DNA of 32,000 bases, from assembly GCF_051650885.1 (NCBI RefSeq), contig NZ_JBOFRG010000313.1, forward strand, positions 17,354 to 49,353, written 5' to 3'. A program made the position numbers and the translations under genes. Below the pieces are notes generated by a model. It was not told where the DNA came from. It worked only from the letters and a program-made list of their open reading frames with translations, and ran no database searches. Positions 22,817-32,000 of the stretch are shown here, one piece after another. Every line of letters starts with the position of its first letter. Within the stretch, counting starts at the first letter, position 1. This DNA is from Clostridium sp. GTDB lineage: Bacteria; Bacillota; Clostridia; Clostridiales; Clostridiaceae.

Positions 22817-24643
22817 ATGTGCGGAATAGTAGGATATGTTGGAGATAAAAAAGCAACTAACTTTTTAGTAGAGGGATTATCAAAGCTGGAGTATAGAGGA
22901 TATGACTCAGCTGGTGTCGCAGTAAATGAAGGAGGAAACCTTGTAGTTAAAAAGAAAAAGGGTAGATTATCTAACCTTGAAGAAGAATTAACTACGAACC
23001 CTTTAAATGGATGTGTCGGGATTGGACATACTAGATGGGCAACACATGGAGCACCATCAGATAGAAATTCACACCCACACTTAAGCAATGATGGAAGTAT
23101 AGCTGTTGTACACAATGGTATAATAGAAAACTACATCGAACTTAGAAAATTTTTAGGAGAAGAAGGTTATACTTTCAAATCAGATACTGATACAGAGGTA
23201 ATACCAAACCTTGTACAATATTACTATAATGGCGACCTTTTTGAGGCGGTAGTTAAAGCTACTGAAAGATTAGAGGGAAGCTATGCAATTGGAGTAGTTT
23301 CACAAAATGATGAAAACACTTTAATTGGAGTAAGAAAGGATAGTCCATTAATTGTTGGACTTAATGATACTGAAAATTACATTGCTTCAGATATACCGGC
23401 AGTATTAAGTTATACAAGAAAAGTATACTTATTAGAGGATGATGAATTTGTTATCATGAACAAAGAGGGAGTAACTCTTGTAACTAGAGATGGCAAAGAA
23501 ATCGATAAAGAAATTTTTAACGTAACATGGGATGAAAGTGCAGCCGAAAAAGGTGGATTTGATTCATTTATGTTAAAAGAAATACATGAGCAACCAAAAG
23601 CGATTAGGGACACGATGACTTCTAGGATATCATTAGAACATGGTGTTTTTTTTGACGACTTTAACATCTCAAAAGAAGAACTAGATGCTATTGATAGAAT
23701 ATATATCGTTGCTTGTGGAACTGCATATCATGCAGGACTTATGGGTAAAGCATCTATTGAAAGATTGGCTAAGATACCAGTTGAGGTAGATATAGCATCT
23801 GAATTTAGATATAGAAATCCATTAGTTACAGACAAATCTTTAGTAATAATCCTTAGTCAATCAGGAGAAACAGCAGATACTTTAGCAGCACTTAGAGATT
23901 GTAAAAAAGCTGGTGCAAGAGTATTAGTTGTAACAAATGTTGTAGGAAGTACAATGTCAAGGGAAGCAAACCATGTTATATATACAATGGCAGGTCCTGA
24001 GATTTCTGTTGCTTCAACAAAAGCATACACTACACAAGTATTAGTTATGCATATGATAGCAATTTACTTTAGTGAATTAAGAGAGACAGTTACTAAAGAA
24101 AACTTAAATAAAATAAAAGAAGAGATGTTAATGCTTCCAGAAAAAATTGAGGAAGCTTTAAATATAAAAGAAGATATAGAAAAAGTGGCTAAAGAAGTTA
24201 AAGATGAAAAAGATCTTTATTTCTTAGGAAGAGGAATGGATTATTCATTAGCTCTTGAAGGGTCATTAAAACTTAAGGAGATTTCTTATATCCATTCAGA
24301 AGCATATGCTGGTGGAGAATTAAAGCATGGACCAATTGCTTTAATAGAAGAAGGAACTAAAGTTATATCAATATTAACTCAAAAGAACTTAATAGATAAA
24401 ATGATAAGTAACGTAGTAGAGATAAAATCTAGAGGGGCTATAAACTTTGGAATAACATTCAAAAGTGAAGAGAAAGCATGTCAGGTATTAGATAATATAT
24501 TATTTATACCAGAAACACATGAAATTTTAGCACCAATAGTTTGCGCAGTAGCACTTCAGTTATTAGCATATTATGTGGCAAGCTTAAAAGGTTTTGATAT
24601 AGATAAACCAAGAAACTTAGCTAAATCTGTAACTGTAGAGTAA
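22817..24643 (+). CDS. glmS: glutamine--fructose-6-phosphate aminotransferase (isomerizing)
   Basis: 608 aa. MCGIVGY Ntn-amidotransferase start, two SIS domains (SQSGETADT), and C-terminal ...PRNLAKSVTVE typical of GlmS. Confidence 0.97.
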   Translation: MCGIVGYVGDKKATNFLVEGLSKLEYRGYDSAGVAVNEGGNLVVKKKKGRLSNLEEELTTNPLNGCVGIGHTRWATHGAPSDRNSHPHLSNDGSIAVVHNGIIENYIELRKFLGEEGYTFKSDTDTEVIPNLVQYYYNGDLFEAVVKATERLEGSYAIGVVSQNDENTLIGVRKDSPLIVGLNDTENYIASDIPAVLSYTRKVYLLEDDEFVIMNKEGVTLVTRDGKEIDKEIFNVTWDESAAEKGGFDSFMLKEIHEQPKAIRDTMTSRISLEHGVFFDDFNISKEELDAIDRIYIVACGTAYHAGLMGKASIERLAKIPVEVDIASEFRYRNPLVTDKSLVIILSQSGETADTLAALRDCKKAGARVLVVTNVVGSTMSREANHVIYTMAGPEISVASTKAYTTQVLVMHMIAIYFSELRETVTKENLNKIKEEMLMLPEKIEEALNIKEDIEKVAKEVKDEKDLYFLGRGMDYSLALEGSLKLKEISYIHSEAYAGGELKHGPIALIEEGTKVISILTQKNLIDKMISNVVEIKSRGAINFGITFKSEEKACQVLDNILFIPETHEILAPIVCAVALQLLAYYVASLKGFDIDKPRNLAKSVTVE

Positions 24644-24680
24644 AAATTATTATTAAAATTAAGATTTATGTTGTTGTAAA

Positions 24681-24740
24681 AAAAAGTTTGCGTATATATA
24701 AAAAACTTTGCATATATATAAAAAACTTTGCCTAAAGTAA
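24681..24740 (+). repeat. three contiguous 20-bp direct repeats (putative TnsB-binding sites of the transposon end)
   Basis: AAAAAGTTTGCGTATATATA / AAAAACTTTGCATATATATA / AAAAACTTTGCCTAAAGTAA. Copies 1 vs 2 match 18/20 and copies 2 vs 3 match 15/20. They are preceded by TGTTGTTGTAAA (24669-24680). Confidence 0.6.
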
Positions 24741-24780: not shown

Positions 24781-24936
24781 ATGAATGATAAATTAGAGTT
24801 ATTGTTAAATGAGTACAAAGAAACAGAAAAATGTTTGGTTATGGGATTAGAGTGGTTACCAAATAATGATTTTGCAAAAGCAAAATTGGATGTAGTAAAA
24901 ATGATAATAAAAGATTTAGAAACTTTAAAAATATAG
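24781..24936 (+). CDS. small hypothetical protein (51 aa) just inside the transposon end
   Basis: Not in the ORF track. ATG 24781 is preceded by an AAAAGGAGAGG RBS. Translation is MNDKLELLLNEYKETEKCLVMGLEWLPNNDFAKAKLDVVKMIIKDLETLKI. A weak hairpin at 24944-24978 follows. No recognisable family. Confidence 0.4.
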   Translation: MNDKLELLLNEYKETEKCLVMGLEWLPNNDFAKAKLDVVKMIIKDLETLKI

Positions 24937-25014
24937 AATAGATAAAGAGGTGTTGATTAAATTCGACATCTCTTTTTGATTTAGATACAATATATTTATT
25001 AAGGAGTGATGAGA

Positions 25015-26475
25015 ATGATTACATATTTTCCAAAAGTATATGATGATGAATTAATGTATAGCATTATAGGAAGATATCATAAATATAGCGGAAACAATAA
25101 AACTTCAGAAACAACAAAAGAATTATTTAATAAAAAAATTTGTGCATCTAAGGATGTACAAGGATATATGAGAGCATTCGCAAAAAATGTTGGGAATATT
25201 ATGAAGAAAAATGAAATGGAACTTATAAACAATCACACACTAATACCAGTGTATGGTTTTTTTTCTTCAAAAGAGAAAGCAAGAAAAATTTTAAGTGTGG
25301 TTTTACATAAGGCTTCGTTAGATGTTATTCGTGAATTGGGTGATAATGGGAGTAATATTACAAAAAAAATAAATATCTATTATTGTCCAATATGTTCAAA
25401 TGATGAGTTTGAAAGAAATGGAGAAGCTTATATTCATAGAACACACCAAGTAAGAGGAGTTGTAGTTTGCGAAAAGCACAAATGTAAATTATATGAGTAT
25501 TCTGAAGAGCTAAAGAAAAATACCTATATTATATTGAAAAGAGAAAACTTGGTGAAAAATGTAGAATATTATGAGAATGAAATATATTGGAATATAGCAA
25601 GAACAGTTCATCAAATTCTTAATTCGTGGCAGTACGGGCAGAAAGAAAAAATAATAAATGAATTTAAAGTGAAGTTAAAAGAGAGAAATTTAATTATGGA
25701 TGGACATAGTGAGAGATTAAGAACTAAAAAGTTAGTTGAAGAATTTGAGAAAAAATATAGTAATGAAATTTTAAAGGAATTGGGTTGTGAAGTAAAACAA
25801 GAATCAAATAGTTGGTTAAAAAGAATATTAGTTAAAAAGAGAAATCAACAATACCTAAGATATATATTAATTAGTGAGTTTTTAGGAGAGAGAGATAAGG
25901 TGTTAAATACAAAAAGAAAAGAAAGTTCGAATAAAAAAGGAATTTGTCAAAATCCTTTTTGCGAAAATTATAATAATATTAATTTAGAATATGAAAATAA
26001 GAGGAAAAATAAAAAAGGAGATAAGTATATAGTTACATATAAGTGCAACTGCGGATATGTATATACAAGATATTTAAAAGGAAATATAAAGAGTAGATTA
26101 AAAGTTATTAGCTATGGGGAAAAATGGGAAGATGAATGTTTGAAACTAATAAAAAGGAAAGAAAAGTTAGCAAATATATCTAAATTAATGGAGTGTGATG
26201 AACGAGCAATAATTAAGTTTGCGCAGATGAAAAATTGTATAGAATTAGTAAATACTGATAGGAGAATGGATTTAACAAAGAAACTTGGTAATAATGGAAT
26301 TTGCAGTGAGGAGATAAAAATGAAACATATAGAAGTAATTGAAGATTATATAAAAAATACTCCAAATTGCACACAAAAAAAAATAAGAAAAATATATTCA
26401 AAAGAATATTATTATTTATATAAAAAGTTCAAAGAAGATTTAGATGATATGATAGTAAGATATAATCTGGAATAA
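25015..26475 (+). CDS. tnsD: TnsD/TniQ-family Tn7-like target-site selection protein
   Basis: N-terminus ITYFPKVYDDELMYSIIGRYHKYSG, then HTLIPVYGFF and the zinc motif YYCPICSNDEF..NGEAYIHRTHQVRGVVVCEKH. These parallel Tn7 TnsD (FPVPYSNELIYSTIAR..., HTLFPLYAPF, YCPDCV..YGEAFW.R.W....CPKH). A second Cys cluster CQNPFCEN...YKCNCGYVY is present. AAGGAG RBS sits 8 nt before ATG 25015. Confidence 0.85.
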   Translation: MITYFPKVYDDELMYSIIGRYHKYSGNNKTSETTKELFNKKICASKDVQGYMRAFAKNVGNIMKKNEMELINNHTLIPVYGFFSSKEKARKILSVVLHKASLDVIRELGDNGSNITKKINIYYCPICSNDEFERNGEAYIHRTHQVRGVVVCEKHKCKLYEYSEELKKNTYIILKRENLVKNVEYYENEIYWNIARTVHQILNSWQYGQKEKIINEFKVKLKERNLIMDGHSERLRTKKLVEEFEKKYSNEILKELGCEVKQESNSWLKRILVKKRNQQYLRYILISEFLGERDKVLNTKRKESSNKKGICQNPFCENYNNINLEYENKRKNKKGDKYIVTYKCNCGYVYTRYLKGNIKSRLKVISYGEKWEDECLKLIKRKEKLANISKLMECDERAIIKFAQMKNCIELVNTDRRMDLTKKLGNNGICSEEIKMKHIEVIEDYIKNTPNCTQKKIRKIYSKEYYYLYKKFKEDLDDMIVRYNLE

Positions 26476-26477
26476 TA

Positions 26478-26522
26478 AAATAAGCATAATAGAACCTGTG
26501 GTTTCTATTATGCTTATTTTTA
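26478..26522 (+). terminator. Rho-independent terminator after tnsD
   Basis: 17-bp stem AAATAAGCATAATAGAA / TTCTATTATGCTTATTT followed by a T-run. Confidence 0.85.
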
Positions 26523-26559: not shown

Positions 26560-26588
26560 TTGTAAATATATATCATAAATAGTAATAT
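26560..26588 (+). promoter_or_regulatory. candidate sigma-A promoter of the three-gene operon
   Basis: TTGTAA, a 17-nt spacer, then TAATAT. The -10 element ends 21 nt upstream of ATG 26610. Confidence 0.4.
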
Positions 26589-26609
26589 TAAACTTGAGAG
26601 GTGAGGAAA

Positions 26610-27737
26610 ATGAAAAAGGTTGAAGTAACAAGTTTCCCAGCAAGCTATGGAGATTCATTTTTATTAGAAATAATTAATGATATGGAAACATATCGGATTT
26701 TGATTGACTGTGGATTTAAGAGAACATACTTAAATTGTTTAAAAGAGAAAGAATTAAAAAAATTGGATATGTTAATATTGACACATATTGATGAAGACCA
26801 TATTGGAGGAGCTTTAGAAATATTGAATCAGATACCGAAAATAGATATAAAAGAGATATGGTTTAATGATTTATATAAAATATATGAATATAAAAAAATA
26901 AAAACGACAATGGAGCATATTAGTGAAAACAAAGGGAAACAAGGAGAGGTAGGATATGCAAAAGCAAAAACAATTTCCAATTATTTGTATGAGAATTATT
27001 TAGAGGTATGGAATAAAAATCATACTCTAATTTGTTGTGATGCTAAAAAATATAAAGAAATAAAAATATTAAATGGTTTGGGAAAAATTATTTTATTATC
27101 ACCGAATATAGAGAGAGTAAATGAGTTGTTTTTGGCATGGATAGCACACATGAGAGACGTAAAGTTGAAATATGACACAAATGAAATCAATAGTTTTTAT
27201 AAATTTATTAAAAGTAATGATTATATTGCAACAAGAGTGCAGAATAATTGTGGGAATAATGGGCTAGATATAGAAAAGCTAGCAGATTATGATGGAAATA
27301 AAAATAGTGTTGTGAATAATTCATCAATTGCATTTTTGATAGAGATATTTGATAAAAAAATATTATTTTTAGGTGATGCTAACGGTAAGGATGTAGTGAA
27401 TGCATTGAAAGAATATATGAGTGATAAAAATATAGATAATTTAAAAGTAGATTTAGTTAAAGTGAGTCATCATGGTAGCAAAAATAATACAGACAAAGAG
27501 TTTTTTAGTATTTGCAAGTCAGATAAATATTTAATATCTACAAATGGGCACAGATTTAACCATCCAGATATGGAATGCTTAAGTAAAATAATTTATCATC
27601 AGAAAGAATATAAAACCATTATATTTAATTACTTAAGAGAAGATGTGAAAAGTAAATTGAATAAAAAAGAACTGAAACAGAGTTTAAATTATGAAATAGA
27701 AATGCCTGAACAAGAAGGGATACTTATAGAGGTGTAA
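26610..27737 (+). CDS. stand-alone ComEC/Rec2-type metallo-beta-lactamase-fold hydrolase (putative nuclease)
   Basis: LILTHIDEDHIGGA (nt 26781-26801 encode THIDEDH) and VKVSHHGSKNN (SHHGS at 27465-27479) match the xTHxDxDHxGG and HHGS blocks of ComEC-like MBL domains. No TM segments. GAGGTGAGG RBS before ATG 26610. Confidence 0.7.
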   Translation: MKKVEVTSFPASYGDSFLLEIINDMETYRILIDCGFKRTYLNCLKEKELKKLDMLILTHIDEDHIGGALEILNQIPKIDIKEIWFNDLYKIYEYKKIKTTMEHISENKGKQGEVGYAKAKTISNYLYENYLEVWNKNHTLICCDAKKYKEIKILNGLGKIILLSPNIERVNELFLAWIAHMRDVKLKYDTNEINSFYKFIKSNDYIATRVQNNCGNNGLDIEKLADYDGNKNSVVNNSSIAFLIEIFDKKILFLGDANGKDVVNALKEYMSDKNIDNLKVDLVKVSHHGSKNNTDKEFFSICKSDKYLISTNGHRFNHPDMECLSKIIYHQKEYKTIIFNYLREDVKSKLNKKELKQSLNYEIEMPEQEGILIEV

Positions 27738-27740
27738 AAT

Positions 27741-29183
27741 ATGGAAATGAATAAAAATTATATATGTAAAATATATAGTAATAACAAAGAATTTTTAGGA
27801 ACAGGATTTTTTATAAATGATAAACAAATGTGTACAGCTGGACATTGTGTTAAAGATATTGAGAAGGGTTATGTAGAGTTGATAAAAAAGAAATATTGCT
27901 TCACAAATGTGAAGAAAATTGAAGAGTTGGACTTTGCAATTGTTATATTTGATGAAGAGGTTTTTGATAGGAGGAGTATAGAATTTAATATAGATTTAGG
28001 GAGGACTAAGAAGGAAAGTTATACATATGGTTATACAAATCTATATAGCGAGGAATCGGAGGGGATGAAATTAAAGCTAGAAGAGTATCCGACAGAATAT
28101 GGAGATAAAATAATTGATGAAACACTTATGATTAGAGGCTGCAATGATGATAGAAGTTGGAAGGGAATATCAGGAGCTCCTGTTTGGAGTAGTGATGGCA
28201 TTAGGGGAATTGTTTTAAAAGAAATTTATGGTGATGGAATTCAAACAAGATTAGAAGCTATTTCATTTGATAAAATAATAAATTATTTAATAGAAAAAAA
28301 AGAAGAGGAATTATTAACGGGCTTTCCAAGGGCGACGATAGGAAAAAGGTTAAATGAGAGAGTTAGAGAAAATAAAAATAGATGTCAAGAGTTATATAGA
28401 GATATCGAACATAGAGAAGCAATAGAAAAAATAGAACCAAACTGTTTTAATTTTGAAAATAATATCAATGAAAAGCATATCTTAAATGAAATAACTGAAG
28501 TACTAGAAAAATATGCATTATTATTAGATGATGAAAGTGTAGAAAGGACAGGTAGATATTTTAGAGATATTAATGAAAAAATAGCAATAGTAGAGGAATA
28601 TATAGGTAAAGATTTTAATAGTATGTATATAGTGCTATGGATGTTAGCAGAAGGAAAAAAGTTTGCACCTAAAATAGGAAAAATATTGTGTGAGAGAAAT
28701 GGAGAGTTTTATGAAAGAGATATATTCATAAGTAGACATAATGGCGAAGGGAAAATAAAATTTTTGATTCCGTTCATCAGTTATAGTGAAAATTTGAAAG
28801 AAGGGATTGAAAATTTAATTACAAGTATGAGTAGAGAAGATAGTACTTTGATAAATTTAAATGACATACAACTTGATGGTGAGGCAGTAGCTTGTCTAGG
28901 ATATATAGAGCAATATGAATTAAGAAAAGCGGTAGAAAAAAGATATTCTGGGGTAGAGATAGAAATTATTGCATTAATAATGTATAACAGTAAAATGTAC
29001 AAGAAGGCAAAAAACATAACAAATAAAAAAGGAGTTATACAACGACAATATATGGACGACATTCAAAATGAAAGTTATAAGTATATGGTATCGACAATTA
29101 GTGAAAAAAAATTGAATTTATTTATATTACCAGTAAATGAATTTAATAAATTTGGACTGGAGAGAGATAATGTTAAAAGATGA
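27741..29183 (+). CDS. fusion protein: N-terminal trypsin-like serine protease plus a C-terminal ~285-aa domain with a PD-(D/E)xK-like motif
   Basis: Catalytic triad context CTAGHCV (His35, nt 27843-27845), LDFAIVIF (Asp64) and GISGAPVW (Ser144, nt 28170-28172). The C-terminal region carries MLAEGKKFAPKIGK and D327-x8-E336-G-K338 (nt 28719-28754). Start is 3 nt after the MBL stop, with an AGAGGTG RBS. Confidence 0.7.
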   Translation: MEMNKNYICKIYSNNKEFLGTGFFINDKQMCTAGHCVKDIEKGYVELIKKKYCFTNVKKIEELDFAIVIFDEEVFDRRSIEFNIDLGRTKKESYTYGYTNLYSEESEGMKLKLEEYPTEYGDKIIDETLMIRGCNDDRSWKGISGAPVWSSDGIRGIVLKEIYGDGIQTRLEAISFDKIINYLIEKKEEELLTGFPRATIGKRLNERVRENKNRCQELYRDIEHREAIEKIEPNCFNFENNINEKHILNEITEVLEKYALLLDDESVERTGRYFRDINEKIAIVEEYIGKDFNSMYIVLWMLAEGKKFAPKIGKILCERNGEFYERDIFISRHNGEGKIKFLIPFISYSENLKEGIENLITSMSREDSTLINLNDIQLDGEAVACLGYIEQYELRKAVEKRYSGVEIEIIALIMYNSKMYKKAKNITNKKGVIQRQYMDDIQNESYKYMVSTISEKKLNLFILPVNEFNKFGLERDNVKR

Positions 29184-31635
29184 GTATAAATATTTAAAAG
29201 AAATCAATAAAAAATATACGATACTTTATATAAAAAAAGAATTTTTGGAGAATGAAGTAATTGAAAAAATTAATTTAGAAGAAATAAAGTATGGACTTGC
29301 TCTTAGCGAGCTATTAATAGGATATAAAAATAATGATTATGTGGAGTTAGCATTAGAATATGCAACAATAATAACAACTGTAGTTAAAGATAAAAAAATA
29401 ATAAAGCGATGTAGTGATATATTAAATAGATTAACAATTTTTACATTTGAAGATGTTCTTAGAAGAAAAGAGAAAGACAAAGTAGAATTGAGTGGAAGTG
29501 GTTTTTCAGGAATGGAAGAACTTGGACACAGAAGAAAATATTTACGAAATCTTGGAAATGAAAAAGTTTTATTAAATAAGTTTCAAGCAGAGTTAAATGA
29601 TGCGATTAACAATTATAAAAATGTAAGTATTTCAGCTTCAACATCTGCAGGAAAATCATATCTAATGCAGAAAAATATTATTGATATGATATCCAAAGAA
29701 AAGGTAATGAAAATTATTTATGTAGTACCGACGAGAGCTTTAATAAGTCAAGTAATGACAGATTTTCAAAGAGAATTGAAAAATATAGGATTAAGTAAAG
29801 AGACAACACTAAGTTGTACGTCACATATTGAAGAAGGAGATTTAAAAGATAGATGCATATTGGTGCTTACACAAGAACGACTAAATCAAATTTTTTTTGA
29901 AGAAGGAATAAATTTAGATATAAATGTTATAGTGGTGGATGAAGCACAGGAAATAGGCGGTGGTGCGAGAGGTGTATTACTTGAGTATGTTATTAATAAT
30001 GCGAAACGAAGATGGGAGAAATGCAATATTATATTCTTAGCACCATTAATTGGTAATCCTGAAACATTTATAGAAAAGTTTAACTTGGAAAAAAGTTATA
30101 GTAAAAAAGAGGAGTTTAGAACTGTTAATCAAAATTTAATATCTTTAGAAAGAATTAGAGGAAAATCAAAAATGGAAATAAGATATGAAAATAGTCATAT
30201 TGGGGAGTTTCCGTATAGAGAAGAAGATTTAAGTAGGAAAGAGAAAAAGATTGCCTATATTTTTAGAAATTTTAATAATAATGAAAATTCCATTATTTAT
30301 TCTAAAATACCGAGTGAAGCTAGAAAGATAGCTATAGAGATAGCTAAGGAGATGGAGGAAGTAATAGATAGTGAAATTGAAATATTTGTAGAATTTTTAA
30401 AAAGTTATATATGTGAACAATATGAATTGGTTGATTTAATAAAAAGAGGTGTAGCATACCATTTTAGTGGAATACCAAGTATTATCAAAAATGGCATTGA
30501 GGAATTAGCAACAAAAGGAAAGTTAAAAGTAATAGCATGTACGACAACTTTGCTAGCAGGCGTTAATGTTCAAGCAAATAATATATATGTATATGAGACC
30601 AAAAAGAAAAATGATGAATTAACAAATTTAGAATTTTGGAATTTAATTGGAAGAGCAGGGCGGATGAAGTATGATGTATGTGGAAATATTATATTAATAA
30701 ATCTTAAGTTAACAGAAGAATTTCCTGAATATAGAAGGGCAGATATTGGGGGAGTGGTTTTTGCAAAGGAAGAAATAATTAATAATGAAAAAAAACAATT
30801 AGAAAATTATATAGAAAAAGCAGATAATGAGTTTTTAGATAAAAATAAGAAGAAAATTTATGAAAATATAGAAAGTACATTAGTTATTGAAGGTTTCTTA
30901 AAAAAAGAAGACGAAAAAATTGAAAAAATAGATAAATTGATAGAAATAAAAATTAAGGAAAATAAAGTGCCAGAAAAAATAGTAAGAAAACTTATAGGAA
31001 TAGATTTAAAAAAATTAAATTTATTATGGGAGAAAATGAATGATTGTGAAAATATTGAGGAATGTATATTAGTAAATCCATTTGCAAAGAATGCAAACAA
31101 GAAATTGATGGAAGTGTTGGGAATTATAAGTGAAATATTTTTAGAGAATAAATATAAAAGCGTAGCGTATAGAGGATATATTGTTAGCAAAGCATTAAAA
31201 TGGATAAGAGAAAATAGTTTTAGACAAATTCTTTTTGAAAATAAAAATATTGCTTTAATGGACAATGAAAAAATAAATAATGAAATAAGTACGGCATTGA
31301 AGGTGATTAATACAGATATACGTTATGAAATGAGTAAATATATTTATGCATACCAAGAAATTTTGAAAGAAATTTTGAAATTACAAAATAAAGAAGTATT
31401 AATAGCTAAAATGCCTAATTATCCATTATATTTGGAGTTTGGAGCAGCAAGAAAAAAAACTTTGGATTTAATGTGTATGGGGTTTATGAGAGAAACAGCT
31501 ATTTTGTTGGAGAGATATGTAAAAAGTGAGGAATTACTTGATATTAAGAAGGAAATAAAAAGTATTAATATTGAGGAAATAACTTGTAGTAATTATATAA
31601 AACAAAGGTTGAAGGAGCAAATAAACATATTGTAA
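29170..31635 (+). CDS. Ski2/Hel308-like superfamily-2 helicase with long N- and C-terminal extensions
   Basis: Motif I SASTSAGKS (GKS at 29650-29658), motif II VVDEAQE (DEAQ at 29938-29949), motif V-like ACTTTLLAGVNVQA, and motif VI NLIGRAGR (30649-30663). ATG 29170 follows GGAGAGAG and overlaps the protease stop by 14 nt. The ORF-track ATG at 29137 has no RBS. Confidence 0.8.
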   Translation: MLKDEYKYLKEINKKYTILYIKKEFLENEVIEKINLEEIKYGLALSELLIGYKNNDYVELALEYATIITTVVKDKKIIKRCSDILNRLTIFTFEDVLRRKEKDKVELSGSGFSGMEELGHRRKYLRNLGNEKVLLNKFQAELNDAINNYKNVSISASTSAGKSYLMQKNIIDMISKEKVMKIIYVVPTRALISQVMTDFQRELKNIGLSKETTLSCTSHIEEGDLKDRCILVLTQERLNQIFFEEGINLDINVIVVDEAQEIGGGARGVLLEYVINNAKRRWEKCNIIFLAPLIGNPETFIEKFNLEKSYSKKEEFRTVNQNLISLERIRGKSKMEIRYENSHIGEFPYREEDLSRKEKKIAYIFRNFNNNENSIIYSKIPSEARKIAIEIAKEMEEVIDSEIEIFVEFLKSYICEQYELVDLIKRGVAYHFSGIPSIIKNGIEELATKGKLKVIACTTTLLAGVNVQANNIYVYETKKKNDELTNLEFWNLIGRAGRMKYDVCGNIILINLKLTEEFPEYRRADIGGVVFAKEEIINNEKKQLENYIEKADNEFLDKNKKKIYENIESTLVIEGFLKKEDEKIEKIDKLIEIKIKENKVPEKIVRKLIGIDLKKLNLLWEKMNDCENIEECILVNPFAKNANKKLMEVLGIISEIFLENKYKSVAYRGYIVSKALKWIRENSFRQILFENKNIALMDNEKINNEISTALKVINTDIRYEMSKYIYAYQEILKEILKLQNKEVLIAKMPNYPLYLEFGAARKKTLDLMCMGFMRETAILLERYVKSEELLDIKKEIKSINIEEITCSNYIKQRLKEQINIL

Positions 31636-31646
31636 ATAAAAAATAG

Positions 31647-31685
31647 AGAAAGACTTGTTATTTTAGAAATAATAAGTCTTTCTAA
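31647..31685 (+). terminator. hairpin terminator after the helicase gene
   Basis: AGAAAGACTT...AAGTCTTTCT stem with an inner TTATT/AATAA extension. It begins 12 nt after the stop codon. Confidence 0.65.
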
Positions 31686-31746
31686 TAAATTTGATTAGAA
31701 TTAGAAAATTTTCTAAGGAATAAAGAGATAGTTAAGATTGCGAGCA

Positions 31747-31790
31747 ATAGCATTAAGTAAAAATATATTTACTTAATGCTATTTATTTTA
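31747..31790 (+). terminator. second perfect hairpin with T-rich tail
   Basis: 15-bp perfect stem ATAGCATTAAGTAAA / TTTACTTAATGCTAT, 6-nt loop, followed by TTATTTTA. Confidence 0.55.
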
Positions 31791-31878: not shown

Positions 31879-32000
31879 ATGAGAAGAAAAACAGATAAAG
31901 CAAAACGAAAAGAAAAAAGAGGAACTGGATATTTCGAAGAATACTCTCCATGGATACAGGTTCATGAATTTGGGTCAAAAGGAAGGACTCATAGAATTTT
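31879..32000 (+). CDS. tnsA: Tn7-like transposase endonuclease subunit TnsA, N-terminal 40 aa (3' end outside window)
   Basis: Not in the ORF track. AGGGAG RBS sits 7 nt before the ATG. Translation is MRRKTDKAKRKEKRGTGYFEEYSPWIQVHEFGSKGRTHRI. It parallels Tn7 TnsA RRIKEGRGQGHGKDYIPWLTVQEVPSSGRSHRI (shared pattern RG.G....Y.PW..V.E..S.GR.HRI). Confidence 0.75.
   Translation, partial: MRRKTDKAKRKEKRGTGYFEEYSPWIQVHEFGSKGRTHRI

What the first reader, a model, noticed from the sequence alone, without database searches (positions are those of the whole stretch)
26560..31690. Three-gene operon (ComEC-type MBL hydrolase / trypsin-like protease fused to a PD-(D/E)xK-like domain / Ski2-like helicase): candidate undescribed defence system, possibly an elaborated Hachiman relative
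Seen in the sequence: the module is insulated by strong hairpin terminators at 26478-26522 and 31647-31685, and it has its own TTGTAA-17-TAATAT promoter candidate. Gene 1 to gene 2 has a 3-nt gap. Gene 2 and gene 3 overlap by 14 nt (ATGTTAAAAGATGA), which implies translational coupling and fixed stoichiometry. All three proteins keep apparently intact catalytic motifs. These are THIDEDH plus SHHGS in the MBL, His35/Asp64/Ser144 plus D-x8-ExK in the fusion protein, and GKS, DEAQ and GRAGR in the helicase. The region is visibly more A/T-rich and Lys/Asn/Ile/Glu-rich than the flanking core genes. Established knowledge: Tn7-like cargo regions are rich in defence systems, and a helicase next to a nuclease is a recurrent defence architecture (Hachiman HamA/HamB, Gabija, and others). 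HamB is a Ski2-like helicase and HamA is a DUF1837 PD-(D/E)xK nuclease encoded immediately upstream of it. Inference: genes 2 and 3 may be a HamA/HamB-like pair in which the HamA-like domain has gained an N-terminal serine protease, with an extra MBL nuclease recruited upstream. I know of no named system with this three-component composition.
Basis: partly seen in the sequence, partly recalled or inferred. Interest (0 to 1): 0.9.

Follow-up and report, generated by a model that had tools for sequence, protein, structure and literature searches.

The report
Protease-activated Hachiman defence operon (HamMAB)
The three genes are a real, intact anti-phage operon, but its type was described in 2025 (Hachiman with a protease-activated DNA-cutting enzyme, called HamMAB or Hachiman-MBL), so this is a divergent Clostridium example on a Tn7-like element and not a new kind of system.

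Summary
The operon is real: MBL hydrolase (26610-27737), trypsin-like protease fused to a C-terminal domain (27741-29183), and helicase (29170-31635). Gene spacing, the 14-nt overlap and the flanking hairpins are as described.

- **Helicase:** a full-length HamB (PADLOC E 2.6e-159).
- **C-terminal domain of gene 2:** a HamA/DUF1837 domain. Evidence: profile-profile match to canonical HamA at 96.9% probability, top three Foldseek hits all Hachiman HamA, and a family-profile hit to the solved trypsin-HamA 9wh1_A.
- **MBL:** belongs to the Avs1a/"LmuA"-type MBL family that travels with fused proteases.
- **Gene order:** conserved in all eight other loci examined, including Clostridium perfringens chromosomes and a Bacillus cereus plasmid.

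This architecture was published in 2025 as HamMAB / Hachiman-MBL. In that model HamB senses DNA, the HamA-fused protease cuts two gating loops in the MBL pro-nuclease, and the freed DNase kills the infected cell.

D327 aligns with the canonical Asp, but the canonical GExK aligns with P344-F345-I346-S347. The HamA domain is therefore catalytically dead, as in published fusions.

Verdict: a new, very divergent member of a known kind. Interest is low.

The parts
26477..26520 (+). Intrinsic terminator hairpin closing the upstream tnsD gene. It separates tnsD from the defence operon.
   Evidence: 18-bp perfect inverted repeat with an 8-nt loop and a U-run (I17). RNA fold -21.7 kcal/mol, z = -5.9.
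26560..26588 (+). Candidate sigma-70-type promoter TTGTAA-17-TAATAT (weak evidence).
   Evidence: Sequence read. Below the threshold of the consensus scan, and such sites are not enriched over shuffles.
26596..26606 (+). Shine-Dalgarno sequence GAGAGGTGAGG for hamM.
   Evidence: Sequence read. It lies 3 nt upstream of the ATG at 26610. A gene call on another assembly uses the same start.
26610..27737 (+). hamM: stand-alone MBL-fold pro-nuclease, 375 aa, of the ComEC-type HxDxDH class. Inferred protease cut sites are V114|G115 and C214|G215.
   Evidence: Pfam Lactamase_B 2.3e-11. PADLOC MBL models 'LmuA' 3.5e-77, Avs1a 2.1e-49, RTasMBL 1.9e-41. NCBIfam Avs1a 7.9e-67, full length but below cutoff. 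Metal ligands are invariant. About 97 extra residues relative to the ComEC MBL domain lie between residues 84 and 235.
27741..28298 (+). Gene 2, residues 1 to about 186: trypsin-like serine protease domain with triad H35/D64/S144.
   Evidence: Pfam Trypsin/Trypsin_2 (weak). PADLOC Avs1b N-terminus and RT-Protease. The triad is invariant in 18 relatives. Foldseek of the AF2 model hits trypsin-fold proteases at E about 1e-9 to 1e-11.
28299..29183 (+). Gene 2, residues about 187-480: catalytically inactivated HamA (DUF1837, PD-(D/E)xK fold) domain. It retains E304 and D327 but has P344-F345-I346-S347 in place of G-E-x-K.
   Evidence: hhalign against canonical HamA: probability 96.9%, E 1.4e-10, 282 columns. 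The top three Foldseek hits are 8zue_A, 8vxy_A and 8vx9_A, all Hachiman HamA. Family profile hits 9wh1_A trypsin-HamA at E 7e-11. Pfam HamA is found in 3 of 18 relatives.
29170..31635 (+). hamB: Ski2-like SF2 helicase, 821 aa. Walker A is GKS, motif II is DEAQ, motif VI is GRAGR. The start overlaps the end of gene 2 by 14 nt.
   Evidence: PADLOC HamB1 PDLC00186 E 2.6e-159 over the full length. The best PDB sequence hit is 9wh1_B, partner chain of trypsin-HamA, E 4.6e-33. 32% identity over the full length to the HamB of the B. cereus plasmid trio.
31647..31683 (+). Hairpin immediately after the hamB stop codon. It has no U-tail.
   Evidence: RNA fold -18.2 kcal/mol, z = -5.3.
31746..31783 (+). 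Second hairpin, with a U-rich tail. It is the more conventional terminator before tnsA.
   Evidence: Terminator scan. Fold -17.7 kcal/mol, z = -5.3.
25015..26475 (+). Context: tnsD (TniQ/TnsD) of a Tn7-like element, immediately downstream of glmS.
   Evidence: Pfam TnsD 1.1e-26 and TniQ 3.3e-13. Gene call.
31880..32000 (+). Context: start of tnsA, which runs off the window. On another assembly of the same locus, tnsB, tnsC and a broken second tnsD follow.
   Evidence: Sequence read. L002 gene table with Tn7_TnsA-like_N, HTH_TnsB and TniB. Second tnsD ORFs.

Best explanation
This is a nuclease-protease Hachiman system (HamMAB, also called Hachiman-MBL), carried next to the transposition genes of a Tn7-like element at the glmS attachment site of a Clostridium chromosome.

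**Shown here, by sequence and structure comparison**
- Gene 3 is HamB.
- Gene 1 is an MBL-fold hydrolase of the family that accompanies protease fusions in AVAST type 1, Lamassu and DRT systems.
- All catalytic residues of the MBL, the protease and the helicase are intact.
- The gene order is conserved across Clostridia and Bacilli.

**Inferred from the published biochemistry of the Pseudomonas fluorescens and Klebsiella pneumoniae homologues**
1. In uninfected cells the protease-dHamA/HamB heterodimer binds ATP and keeps the protease sequestered. The MBL is an auto-inhibited pro-nuclease whose active site is blocked by two inserted loops.
2. DNA with free 3' ends, or damaged DNA produced during infection, enters HamB and triggers ATP hydrolysis. 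This releases and oligomerises protease-dHamA.
3. The protease cuts both gating loops of the MBL. Here the cuts are predicted after V114 and C214, exactly 100 residues apart, as in the two characterised homologues.
4. The processed MBL degrades DNA indiscriminately, giving abortive infection.

The 14-nt overlap between gene 2 and hamB fits translational coupling of the two subunits of the heterodimer.
For: - **HamB:** PADLOC HamB1 E 2.6e-159, full length. The best PDB sequence hit is 9wh1_B, E 4.6e-33.
- **HamA domain:** hhalign against five canonical DUF1837 proteins gives probability 96.9% and E 1.4e-10 over 282 columns. Foldseek of the C-terminal AF2 model puts only Hachiman HamA structures on top: 8zue_A 5.9e-6, 8vxy_A 1.6e-3, 8vx9_A 4e-3. 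The family profile hits 9wh1_A, 'HamA C-terminal domain-containing protein', at E 7.3e-11 over nearly its full length. Three of 18 family members hit Pfam HamA, best 4.1e-23.
- **Dead site:** the canonical G-E-S-K aligns to P344-F345-I346-S347 in both hhalign and an independent L-INS-i alignment. The D-to-E spacing of 18 residues is preserved.
- **Protease:** the triad is invariant, and the fold is trypsin-like.
- **MBL:** Avs1a/'LmuA'/RTasMBL families. Metal ligands are invariant. The insertion relative to ComEC is shown.
- **Cut-site columns:** I/V followed by S/G, and I/C followed by S/G, 100 residues apart.
- **Synteny:** MBL, then protease-HamA, then helicase in L001, L003, L004, L005, L006/7, L008/9, L010 and L017-19.
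- **Published mechanism:** PMC12799240; 10.1101/2025.09.03.673762; PMC12642450.
Against: - Gene 2 itself does not reach significance against Pfam HamA or any PADLOC HamA model. Membership therefore rests on profile-profile, transitive and structural evidence.
- The AF2 models are of moderate quality (pLDDT 72-74), and the TM-scores to HamA structures are low (0.33-0.47).
- The predicted P1 residues are V and C, whereas the characterised cases use I (Pfl) or S (Kpn). The first gating loop is about 20 residues shorter than in more distant relatives.
- I could not align directly to PflHamM or the Kpn MBL because neither sequence was available.
- No functional data exist for this locus or its clade.
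Confidence: 0.85

Rival explanations
1. An undescribed three-enzyme defence system in which gene 2 carries an active PD-(D/E)xK nuclease (D327/E336/K338) as well as a protease, with the MBL as a second, independent nuclease.
For: - The string D-x8-E-x-K is present.
- D327 is nearly invariant in the family.
- A pairwise BLASTP puts GEGK opposite the GDGK of a B. cereus fused HamA.
- Gene 2 escapes the Pfam and PADLOC HamA models.
Against: - E336/K338 are not conserved even among the closest relatives, which have EKG or DGD at that position.
- They lie in the beta2-beta3 turn of the AF2 model.
- They align to the non-catalytic 'DGK' turn of canonical HamA. The canonical GExK, 18 residues after the Asp, aligns to PFIS.
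- The same three-gene composition is already named and characterised.
Confidence: 0.05
2. A housekeeping competence or repair module: a ComEC-like DNA-uptake nuclease together with a Hel308/Ski2-type repair helicase.
For: - The MBL gives weak hits to ComEC (NCBIfam TIGR00361 E 3.4e-13; PDB ComEC 4e-6).
- GenBank names it 'ComEC/Rec2 family competence protein'.
- The helicase hits Hel308 models at 1e-26 to 1e-31.
Against: - The ComEC score is 48.6 bits against a 190-bit cutoff. The protein is a 375-aa soluble MBL domain only.
- Matches to defence-associated MBL families are far stronger, at 1e-49 to 1e-77.
- The helicase scores 530 bits on HamB against about 100 bits on Hel308, whose cutoff is 1200.
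- The locus sits inside a Tn7-like element, and elsewhere next to Mob, resolvase, methylase and resistance genes.
Confidence: 0.02
3. A member of another system that uses the same MBL-protease module (AVAST type 1 or Lamassu hydrolase-protease) that happens to lie next to an unrelated helicase.
For: The MBL's best PADLOC and NCBIfam hits are the 'LmuA' MBL and Avs1a. The protease domain's best hits are Avs1b and RT-Protease.
Against: - Gene 2 is 480 aa and matches only residues 7-187 of the 1924-position Avs1b model. There is no STAND NTPase, no SMC-like LmuB and no reverse transcriptase in the operon.
- The domain fused to the protease is HamA, and the overlapping downstream gene is HamB.
Confidence: 0.02
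4. A decaying or non-functional copy of HamMAB carried as passive cargo. The argument would be the divergent cut sites, the shortened gating loop and the broken second tnsD nearby.
For: - The first gating loop is shorter than in relatives, and two otherwise near-invariant Phe positions are changed: 110 is K, and 210 is V.
- The neighbouring tnsD paralogue is split into two ORFs.
Against: - All three ORFs are full length, with every catalytic residue intact.
- The identical locus was recovered on a second contig record (L002, assembly GCA_051651085.1).
- The coupling overlap and the RBSs are preserved.
Confidence: 0.06

Closest known systems
HamMAB / Hachiman-MBL (trypsin-HamAB + MBL): Pseudomonas fluorescens PflHamMAB (Tuck et al. 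2025, PMC12799240) and the Klebsiella pneumoniae system (Huang et al. 2025, bioRxiv 10.1101/2025.09.03.673762; PDB 9wh1/9whk/9whu)
   Same: - Same three genes in the same order: MBL upstream, protease fused N-terminally to HamA, then HamB.
- The HamA nuclease motif is lost.
- The MBL, protease and helicase catalytic residues are intact.
- The MBL carries about 100 extra residues relative to ComEC, with two conserved aliphatic-S/G sites 100 residues apart.
- HamB Walker A and motif II sit at nearly the same residue numbers as in the Kpn protein.
   Different: - Very divergent in sequence. Gene 2 has only 22 detectable representatives among 1.84 billion, and it misses the Pfam and PADLOC HamA models.
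- The HamA Asp is retained while ExK is lost. The B. cereus and P0017 subgroup does the opposite.
- The predicted P1 residues are V and C, not I (Pfl) or S (Kpn).
- The first gating loop is shorter.
- The host is a Firmicute and the context is Tn7-like.
Canonical Hachiman type I (HamA-HamB; E. coli ECOR31, PDB 8VX9; Tuck et al. 2024, PMC12278908)
   Same: A HamB sensor helicase with a HamA-fold partner encoded immediately upstream and overlapping it. Probably the same DNA-integrity sensing.
   Different: Canonical HamA is itself the effector nuclease (D...GExK; E138/K140 are essential). Here that site is dead and the effector is a separate protease-activated MBL DNase.
AVAST type 1 (Avs1a MBL + Avs1b protease-STAND)
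   Same: A homologous MBL pro-nuclease (NCBIfam Avs1a E 7.9e-67) and a homologous trypsin-like protease domain. The same proteolytic gating mechanism has been shown for EpiAvs1.
   Different: The sensor is a roughly 1900-aa STAND NTPase that recognises phage terminase, not a HamA/HamB helicase complex.
AbpAB / Cap4-HamAB (PDB 8zue)
   Same: A Hachiman variant in which an inactivated HamA domain carries an N-terminal effector fusion. It is the best Foldseek hit for the C-terminal domain.
   Different: The fused effector is a Cap4-type endonuclease acting directly, not a protease acting on a third protein.
ComEC C-terminal MBL nuclease domain
   Same: The same MBL subclass (HxDxDH ... HHGS ... 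HP), and DNase chemistry.
   Different: ComEC is a large membrane DNA-uptake channel. It lacks the two gating insertions and has no protease partner.

Membership tests
HamMAB / Hachiman-MBL | HamB: Ski2-like SF2 helicase matching HamB profiles over its full length, with intact ATPase motifs | tested here: met
   PADLOC HamB1 E 2.6e-159, residues 20-830 against profile 15-859 of 864. GKS, DEAQ and GRAGR are present. 9wh1_B E 4.6e-33.
HamMAB / Hachiman-MBL | HamA (DUF1837) domain encoded immediately upstream of hamB | tested here: met
   Not detected by the Pfam or PADLOC HMMs on the single sequence. Detected by hhalign against canonical HamA at 96.9% and E 1.4e-10, by Foldseek with the top three hits all HamA, by the profile hit to 9wh1_A at E 7e-11, and by Pfam HamA in 3 of 18 relatives.
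HamMAB / Hachiman-MBL | [quoted passage not shown] | tested here: met
   H35/D64/S144 are invariant. Trypsin fold by Foldseek. Avs1b N-terminus and RT-Protease models.
HamMAB / Hachiman-MBL | Separate MBL-fold (ComEC-like) nuclease gene immediately upstream of the protease fusion | tested here: met
   3-nt intergenic gap. MBL families. Metal ligands invariant.
HamMAB / Hachiman-MBL | Canonical HamA D-GExK nuclease motif absent from the fused HamA | tested here: met
   GExK aligns to P344-F345-I346-S347. The Asp (D327) is retained.
HamMAB / Hachiman-MBL | MBL carries two gating insertions, each with a conserved protease cut site | tested here: inconclusive
   About 97 extra residues relative to ComEC lie between residues 84 and 235. 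Two conserved [I/V/C]-[S/G] columns fall at V114-G115 and C214-G215, 100 residues apart, as for I118/I218 and I134/I234 in the characterised proteins. No structure model of the MBL was made, and no direct alignment to PflHamM or the Kpn MBL was possible.
HamMAB / Hachiman-MBL | Protease-dependent cleavage activates the MBL DNase; ATP inhibits and DNA relieves the inhibition; phage defence by abortive infection | not testable with these tools
   Biochemistry and phage assays are needed.
Canonical Hachiman type I (HamAB) | HamA is an active PD-(D/E)xK nuclease with the D...GExK motif and is the effector | tested here: not met
   The ExK residues are replaced by F345/S347.
AVAST type 1 | Protease fused to a STAND NTPase sensor (Avs1b, about 1900 aa) | tested here: not met
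   Gene 2 is 480 aa. Only residues 5-186 match Avs1b positions 7-187 of 1924. NCBIfam Avs1b scores 24 bits against a 1500-bit cutoff.
Lamassu (hydrolase-protease subtype) | SMC-like LmuB (and LmuC) partner | tested here: not met
   There is no such gene in the operon. The only partner is HamB.
ComEC/Rec2 competence protein | Full-length membrane channel with a competence domain, reaching the family cutoff | tested here: not met
   TIGR00361 scores 48.6 bits against a 190-bit cutoff. Only the MBL part aligns.

The most novel reading that the evidence does not exclude
The Clostridial clade, which includes this locus, Clostridium perfringens and Terrisporobacter, could be a functionally distinct HamMAB lineage in three respects:
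- The fused HamA keeps the catalytic Asp and the helix Glu but not ExK.
- The MBL has a truncated first gate and V|G and C|G cut sites.
- In this genome the operon is wedged between a tnsD paralogue and tnsABC of a Tn7-like element.

The third point raises the possibility that the defence operon is part of, or co-regulated with, the transposition module rather than ordinary distal cargo.
Probability: 0.1. Interest if true: 0.4.

Novelty: new member of a known kind. Interest (0 to 1): 0.2.

Why it matters

What remains useful is practical. This Clostridium clade is so divergent that its HamA domain escapes the Pfam and PADLOC (2023) HamA profiles. A tool that needs those HamA profiles would probably see only an orphan HamB plus a 'ComEC-like' MBL, although neither PADLOC nor DefenseFinder was run as a pipeline here. 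Adding such sequences to HamA and HamM profiles would improve annotation of Hachiman in Firmicutes, including C. perfringens.

The locus also adds a data point on how the HamA site decays in protease fusions. Some lineages lose ExK and others lose the Asp.

Tried and rejected
- **Word-indexed homologue search with gene 2:** returned only the protein itself. The exhaustive HMMER search was needed.
- **Single-sequence search of gene 2 against PDB sequences:** only chance hits.
- **Foldseek of the full-length model:** swamped by trypsin-fold proteases, with no HamA visible. I re-modelled the C-terminal domain alone.
- **Profile of the C-terminal domains against PDB sequences:** reached 9wh1_A but not canonical HamA 8vx9_A. 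I therefore collected canonical HamA sequences from plasmids through HamB tblastn hits and used hhalign.
- **The search for related loci with the 18-sequence alignment:** With five sequences it found a single locus. Contexts were obtained through the look-up of encoding contigs instead.
- **Search with the C-terminus of a Pfam-HamA-positive relative:** returned only other fusions, no canonical HamA.
- **F110/F210 as cut sites:** I first considered these positions, near-invariant Phe in the close clade. After the wider alignment I rejected them in favour of the more widely conserved [I/V/C]-[S/G] columns four residues downstream.
- **Tn7 end repeats:** three 20-bp-spaced direct repeats lie just after glmS, but no matching copies occur elsewhere in the window or in L002. 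The element boundaries therefore remain undefined.
- **Rfam:** no RNA family found in 24-32 kb.

Full report
**1. What is in the sequence**

Between glmS (22817-24643) and the end of the window, all long ORFs are on the + strand:
- a TnsD/TniQ gene, 25015-26475 (Pfam TnsD 1.1e-26);
- an MBL-fold gene, 26610-27737;
- a 480-aa gene, 27741-29183;
- a helicase gene, 29170-31635;
- the first 40 codons of a TnsA-like gene starting at 31880.

The minus-strand ORFs in the region are short and nested inside these genes. No Rfam family is present.

- There is a 3-nt gap between genes 1 and 2.
- Genes 2 and 3 overlap by 14 nt (ATGTTAAAAGATGA) if gene 3 starts at the ATG preceded by GGAGAGAG. An independent gene call on another assembly of the same locus uses that start.
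- The two hairpins are real and far more stable than shuffled controls: -21.7 and -18.2 kcal/mol, z about -5.9 and -5.3.
- Only the first hairpin has a U-run. A further hairpin with a U-rich tail lies at 31746-31783.

- The proposed promoter exists as a string, but promoter-like sites are not enriched in this A/T-rich DNA: 44 found against 52.9 expected.
- The compositional contrast with the flanks is small.

**2. Identity of the three proteins**

*Helicase.* It matches PADLOC HamB models over its entire length (E 2.6e-159). That is far better than its matches to Hel308/Ski2 housekeeping models, which score about 100 bits against cutoffs of about 900-1200. Its best hit among PDB sequences is 9wh1_B (E 4.6e-33). 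That chain is the partner of 9wh1_A, 'HamA C-terminal domain-containing protein'.

*MBL.* It has the ComEC-type HxDxDH and HHGS motifs. However, it scores only 48.6 bits on the ComEC model, whose cutoff is 190. It matches the defence-associated MBL families strongly:
- PADLOC 'LmuA' MBL, 3.5e-77;
- Avs1a, 2.1e-49;
- RT-associated MBL, 1.9e-41;
- NCBIfam Avs1a, 7.9e-67.

*Gene 2, N-terminal part.* The first 186 residues or so are a trypsin-like protease.
- There are weak Pfam hits and matches to the Avs1b N-terminus and to RT-Protease models.
- H35/D64/S144 are invariant in 18 relatives.
- The AlphaFold2 model hits trypsin-fold structures at E 1e-9 to 1e-11.

*Gene 2, C-terminal part.* This half is invisible to the Pfam and PADLOC HamA models and to single-sequence PDB searches. 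An exhaustive HMMER search of 1.84 billion representatives found only 22 relatives, all with the same roughly 480-520-aa architecture. Four lines of evidence make this half a HamA domain:
- The family profile hits 9wh1_A nearly end to end (E 7.3e-11; C-terminal part alone 7.9e-9).
- Three of 18 relatives hit Pfam HamA (best 4.1e-23), and precomputed Pfam annotations show the same for P0007, P0014 and P0017.
- A profile-profile comparison with five canonical DUF1837 proteins, taken from plasmid Hachiman loci, gives 96.9% probability and E 1.4e-10 over 282 columns.
- An AF2 model of the C-terminal domain (pLDDT 72, pTM 0.74) has Hachiman HamA structures as its only three top Foldseek hits: 8zue_A, 8vxy_A and 8vx9_A.

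**3. The PD-(D/E)xK motif is not intact**

Canonical HamA has the pattern ...GaDGV...(17 residues)...wGESK. E138/K140 of the E. coli protein are essential (PMC12278908).

Two independent alignments agree on how gene 2 maps to this pattern: hhalign, and an L-INS-i alignment of 26 fused and 5 canonical sequences.
- D327 of gene 2 aligns with the canonical Asp.
- G-E-S-K aligns with P344-F345-I346-S347. The 18-residue Asp-to-Glu spacing is preserved.
- E336/K338 are not conserved even in the nearest relatives.

A pairwise BLASTP with a B. cereus fused HamA does put GEGK opposite that protein's GDGK. I treat this as a local mis-alignment because it breaks the helix-strand-strand-strand-helix register and the spacing from the conserved Pro.

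Across the fused family, every lineage lacks at least one catalytic residue:
- the Clostridial clade keeps the Asp and loses ExK;
- the P0017 and B. cereus group keeps (D/E)xK and loses the Asp.

This matches the published statement that the D-GExK motif is absent in virtually all protease-HamA fusions (PMC12799240).

**4. Conservation of the trio**

The order MBL, then protease-HamA, then helicase, on one strand and tightly spaced, was found in every context I could read:
- another Clostridium MAG (L001);
- five metagenomic loci on seven contigs, representing distant family members (L003-L009);
- a Bacillus cereus plasmid, where RefSeq already names the middle gene 'Hachiman antiphage defense system protein HamA' (L010; PADLOC HamA 1.2e-24);
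- Clostridium perfringens chromosomes. That MBL sequence is indexed in 51 blocks of the collection; 24 contigs were read and the three loci shown (L017-L019) all carry the trio. The helicase there scores HamB 2.9e-182.

Neighbouring genes include Mob relaxase, DNA methylase, resolvase and resistance genes.

**5. Comparison with what is known**

This exact composition was described in 2025 by three groups.
- **Tuck et al. (Science; PMC12799240)** named it HamMAB.
  - About 5% of Hachiman systems carry a protease-HamA fusion with an upstream MBL.
  - ATP inhibits the system, and DNA-stimulated hydrolysis activates it.
  - HamA-mediated oligomerisation is needed.
- **Huang et al. (bioRxiv 10.1101/2025.09.03.673762)** reached the same model for a Klebsiella system.
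  - The cuts there are at two KSS motifs.
  - They solved trypsin-HamAB-DNA structures with a 528-aa HamA, matching 9wh1_A.
  - They distinguished KSS-type MBLs from IS(G)N-type MBLs.
- **A third preprint (PMC12642450)** lists Hachiman among the sensors attached to MBL-protease modules.

**6. Likely mechanism here**

*Shown:* the parts list, the intact catalytic residues and the dead HamA site.

*Inferred by homology:*
1. The dHamA-HamB complex holds the protease inactive while ATP is bound.
2. DNA ends or damaged DNA entering HamB trigger ATP hydrolysis, which releases and oligomerises the protease.
3. The protease cuts the two gates of the MBL.
4. The freed DNase degrades DNA, and the infection aborts.

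*Gates.* The ComEC alignments leave about 97 unmatched residues between MBL residues 84 and 235. In an alignment of 119 homologues, the most conserved aliphatic positions in that stretch are each followed by S or G:
- I in 79 of 95 distant homologues, and V or I in the close clade;
- I or C in 71 of 95 distant homologues, and C in 23 of 23 in the close clade.

These columns correspond to V114-G115 and C214-G215-N216 here. They are exactly 100 residues apart, as are I118/I218 in PflHamM and I134/I234 in EpiAvs1a. I therefore predict cuts after V114 and C214, which would make this an IS(G)N-type MBL. This is an inference.

**7. Verdict**

- It is wrong about novelty and about the nuclease motif in gene 2.
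- This is a new, unusually divergent member of a known kind.
- Its practical interest is that its HamA domain escapes current HMMs, so annotation pipelines will under-call Hachiman in Clostridia.

Noticed in passing
window 24672-24730: Three direct repeats, AAAAAA(G/C)TTTGC(G/A)TATATAT, spaced 20 bp apart, start about 30 bp after the glmS stop codon. This is where a Tn7-like end with TnsB-binding sites would be expected. No further copies occur in the window or in the 14.7-kb locus L002.
   Followed up: partly
window 25015-26475 and 31880-32000; L002 7379-13535: Unusual order of Tn7-like genes: glmS, tnsD, HamMAB, tnsA, tnsB, tnsC, then a second tnsD paralogue. That paralogue is 35% identical to the first and is split into two ORFs of 370 and 184 aa. 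This could be two stacked elements or one rearranged element, with the defence operon lying between transposition genes.
   Followed up: partly
window 24782-24937: A small 51-aa ORF with its own RBS lies between glmS and tnsD and is followed by a terminator-like hairpin at 24944-24975. It was called as a gene on the other assembly. It has no Pfam hit on record there and was not searched here.
   Followed up: no
window 26610-27737 (MBL residues 110 and 210): In 22-23 of the 23 closest MBL relatives, a Phe lies four residues before each predicted cut site (the FDEE-V-G and FDEE-C-S motifs). In this protein both are changed, to K110-Q-G-E and V210-Q-N-N. This may be co-variation of the extended protease recognition site.
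   Followed up: partly
L011 5197-5937, L015 4684-5421, L016 4689-4985 (plasmid loci): Canonical HamAB operons on Bartonella, Agrobacterium and Caballeronia plasmids are each followed directly by a gene annotated 'DCL family protein'. No such gene accompanies the HamMAB loci examined.
   Followed up: no
L006 9971-12940: Immediately downstream of a HamMAB trio on a mobilisable-looking contig (Mob_Pre, DNA methylase) lies a 989-aa protein combining AEP-TOTE, DEAD/ResIII helicase and PLD-like domains. It may be another defence gene.
   Followed up: no
window 1-22300: The flanking region is ordinary chromosome: leuB/ilvD/ilvB/ilvC-type genes, a PGA_cap gene, cysteine desulfurase and ThiI, a PTS EIIC, an ABC exporter pair and a FUSC-like membrane protein. 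Nothing here is related to the finding.
   Followed up: partly
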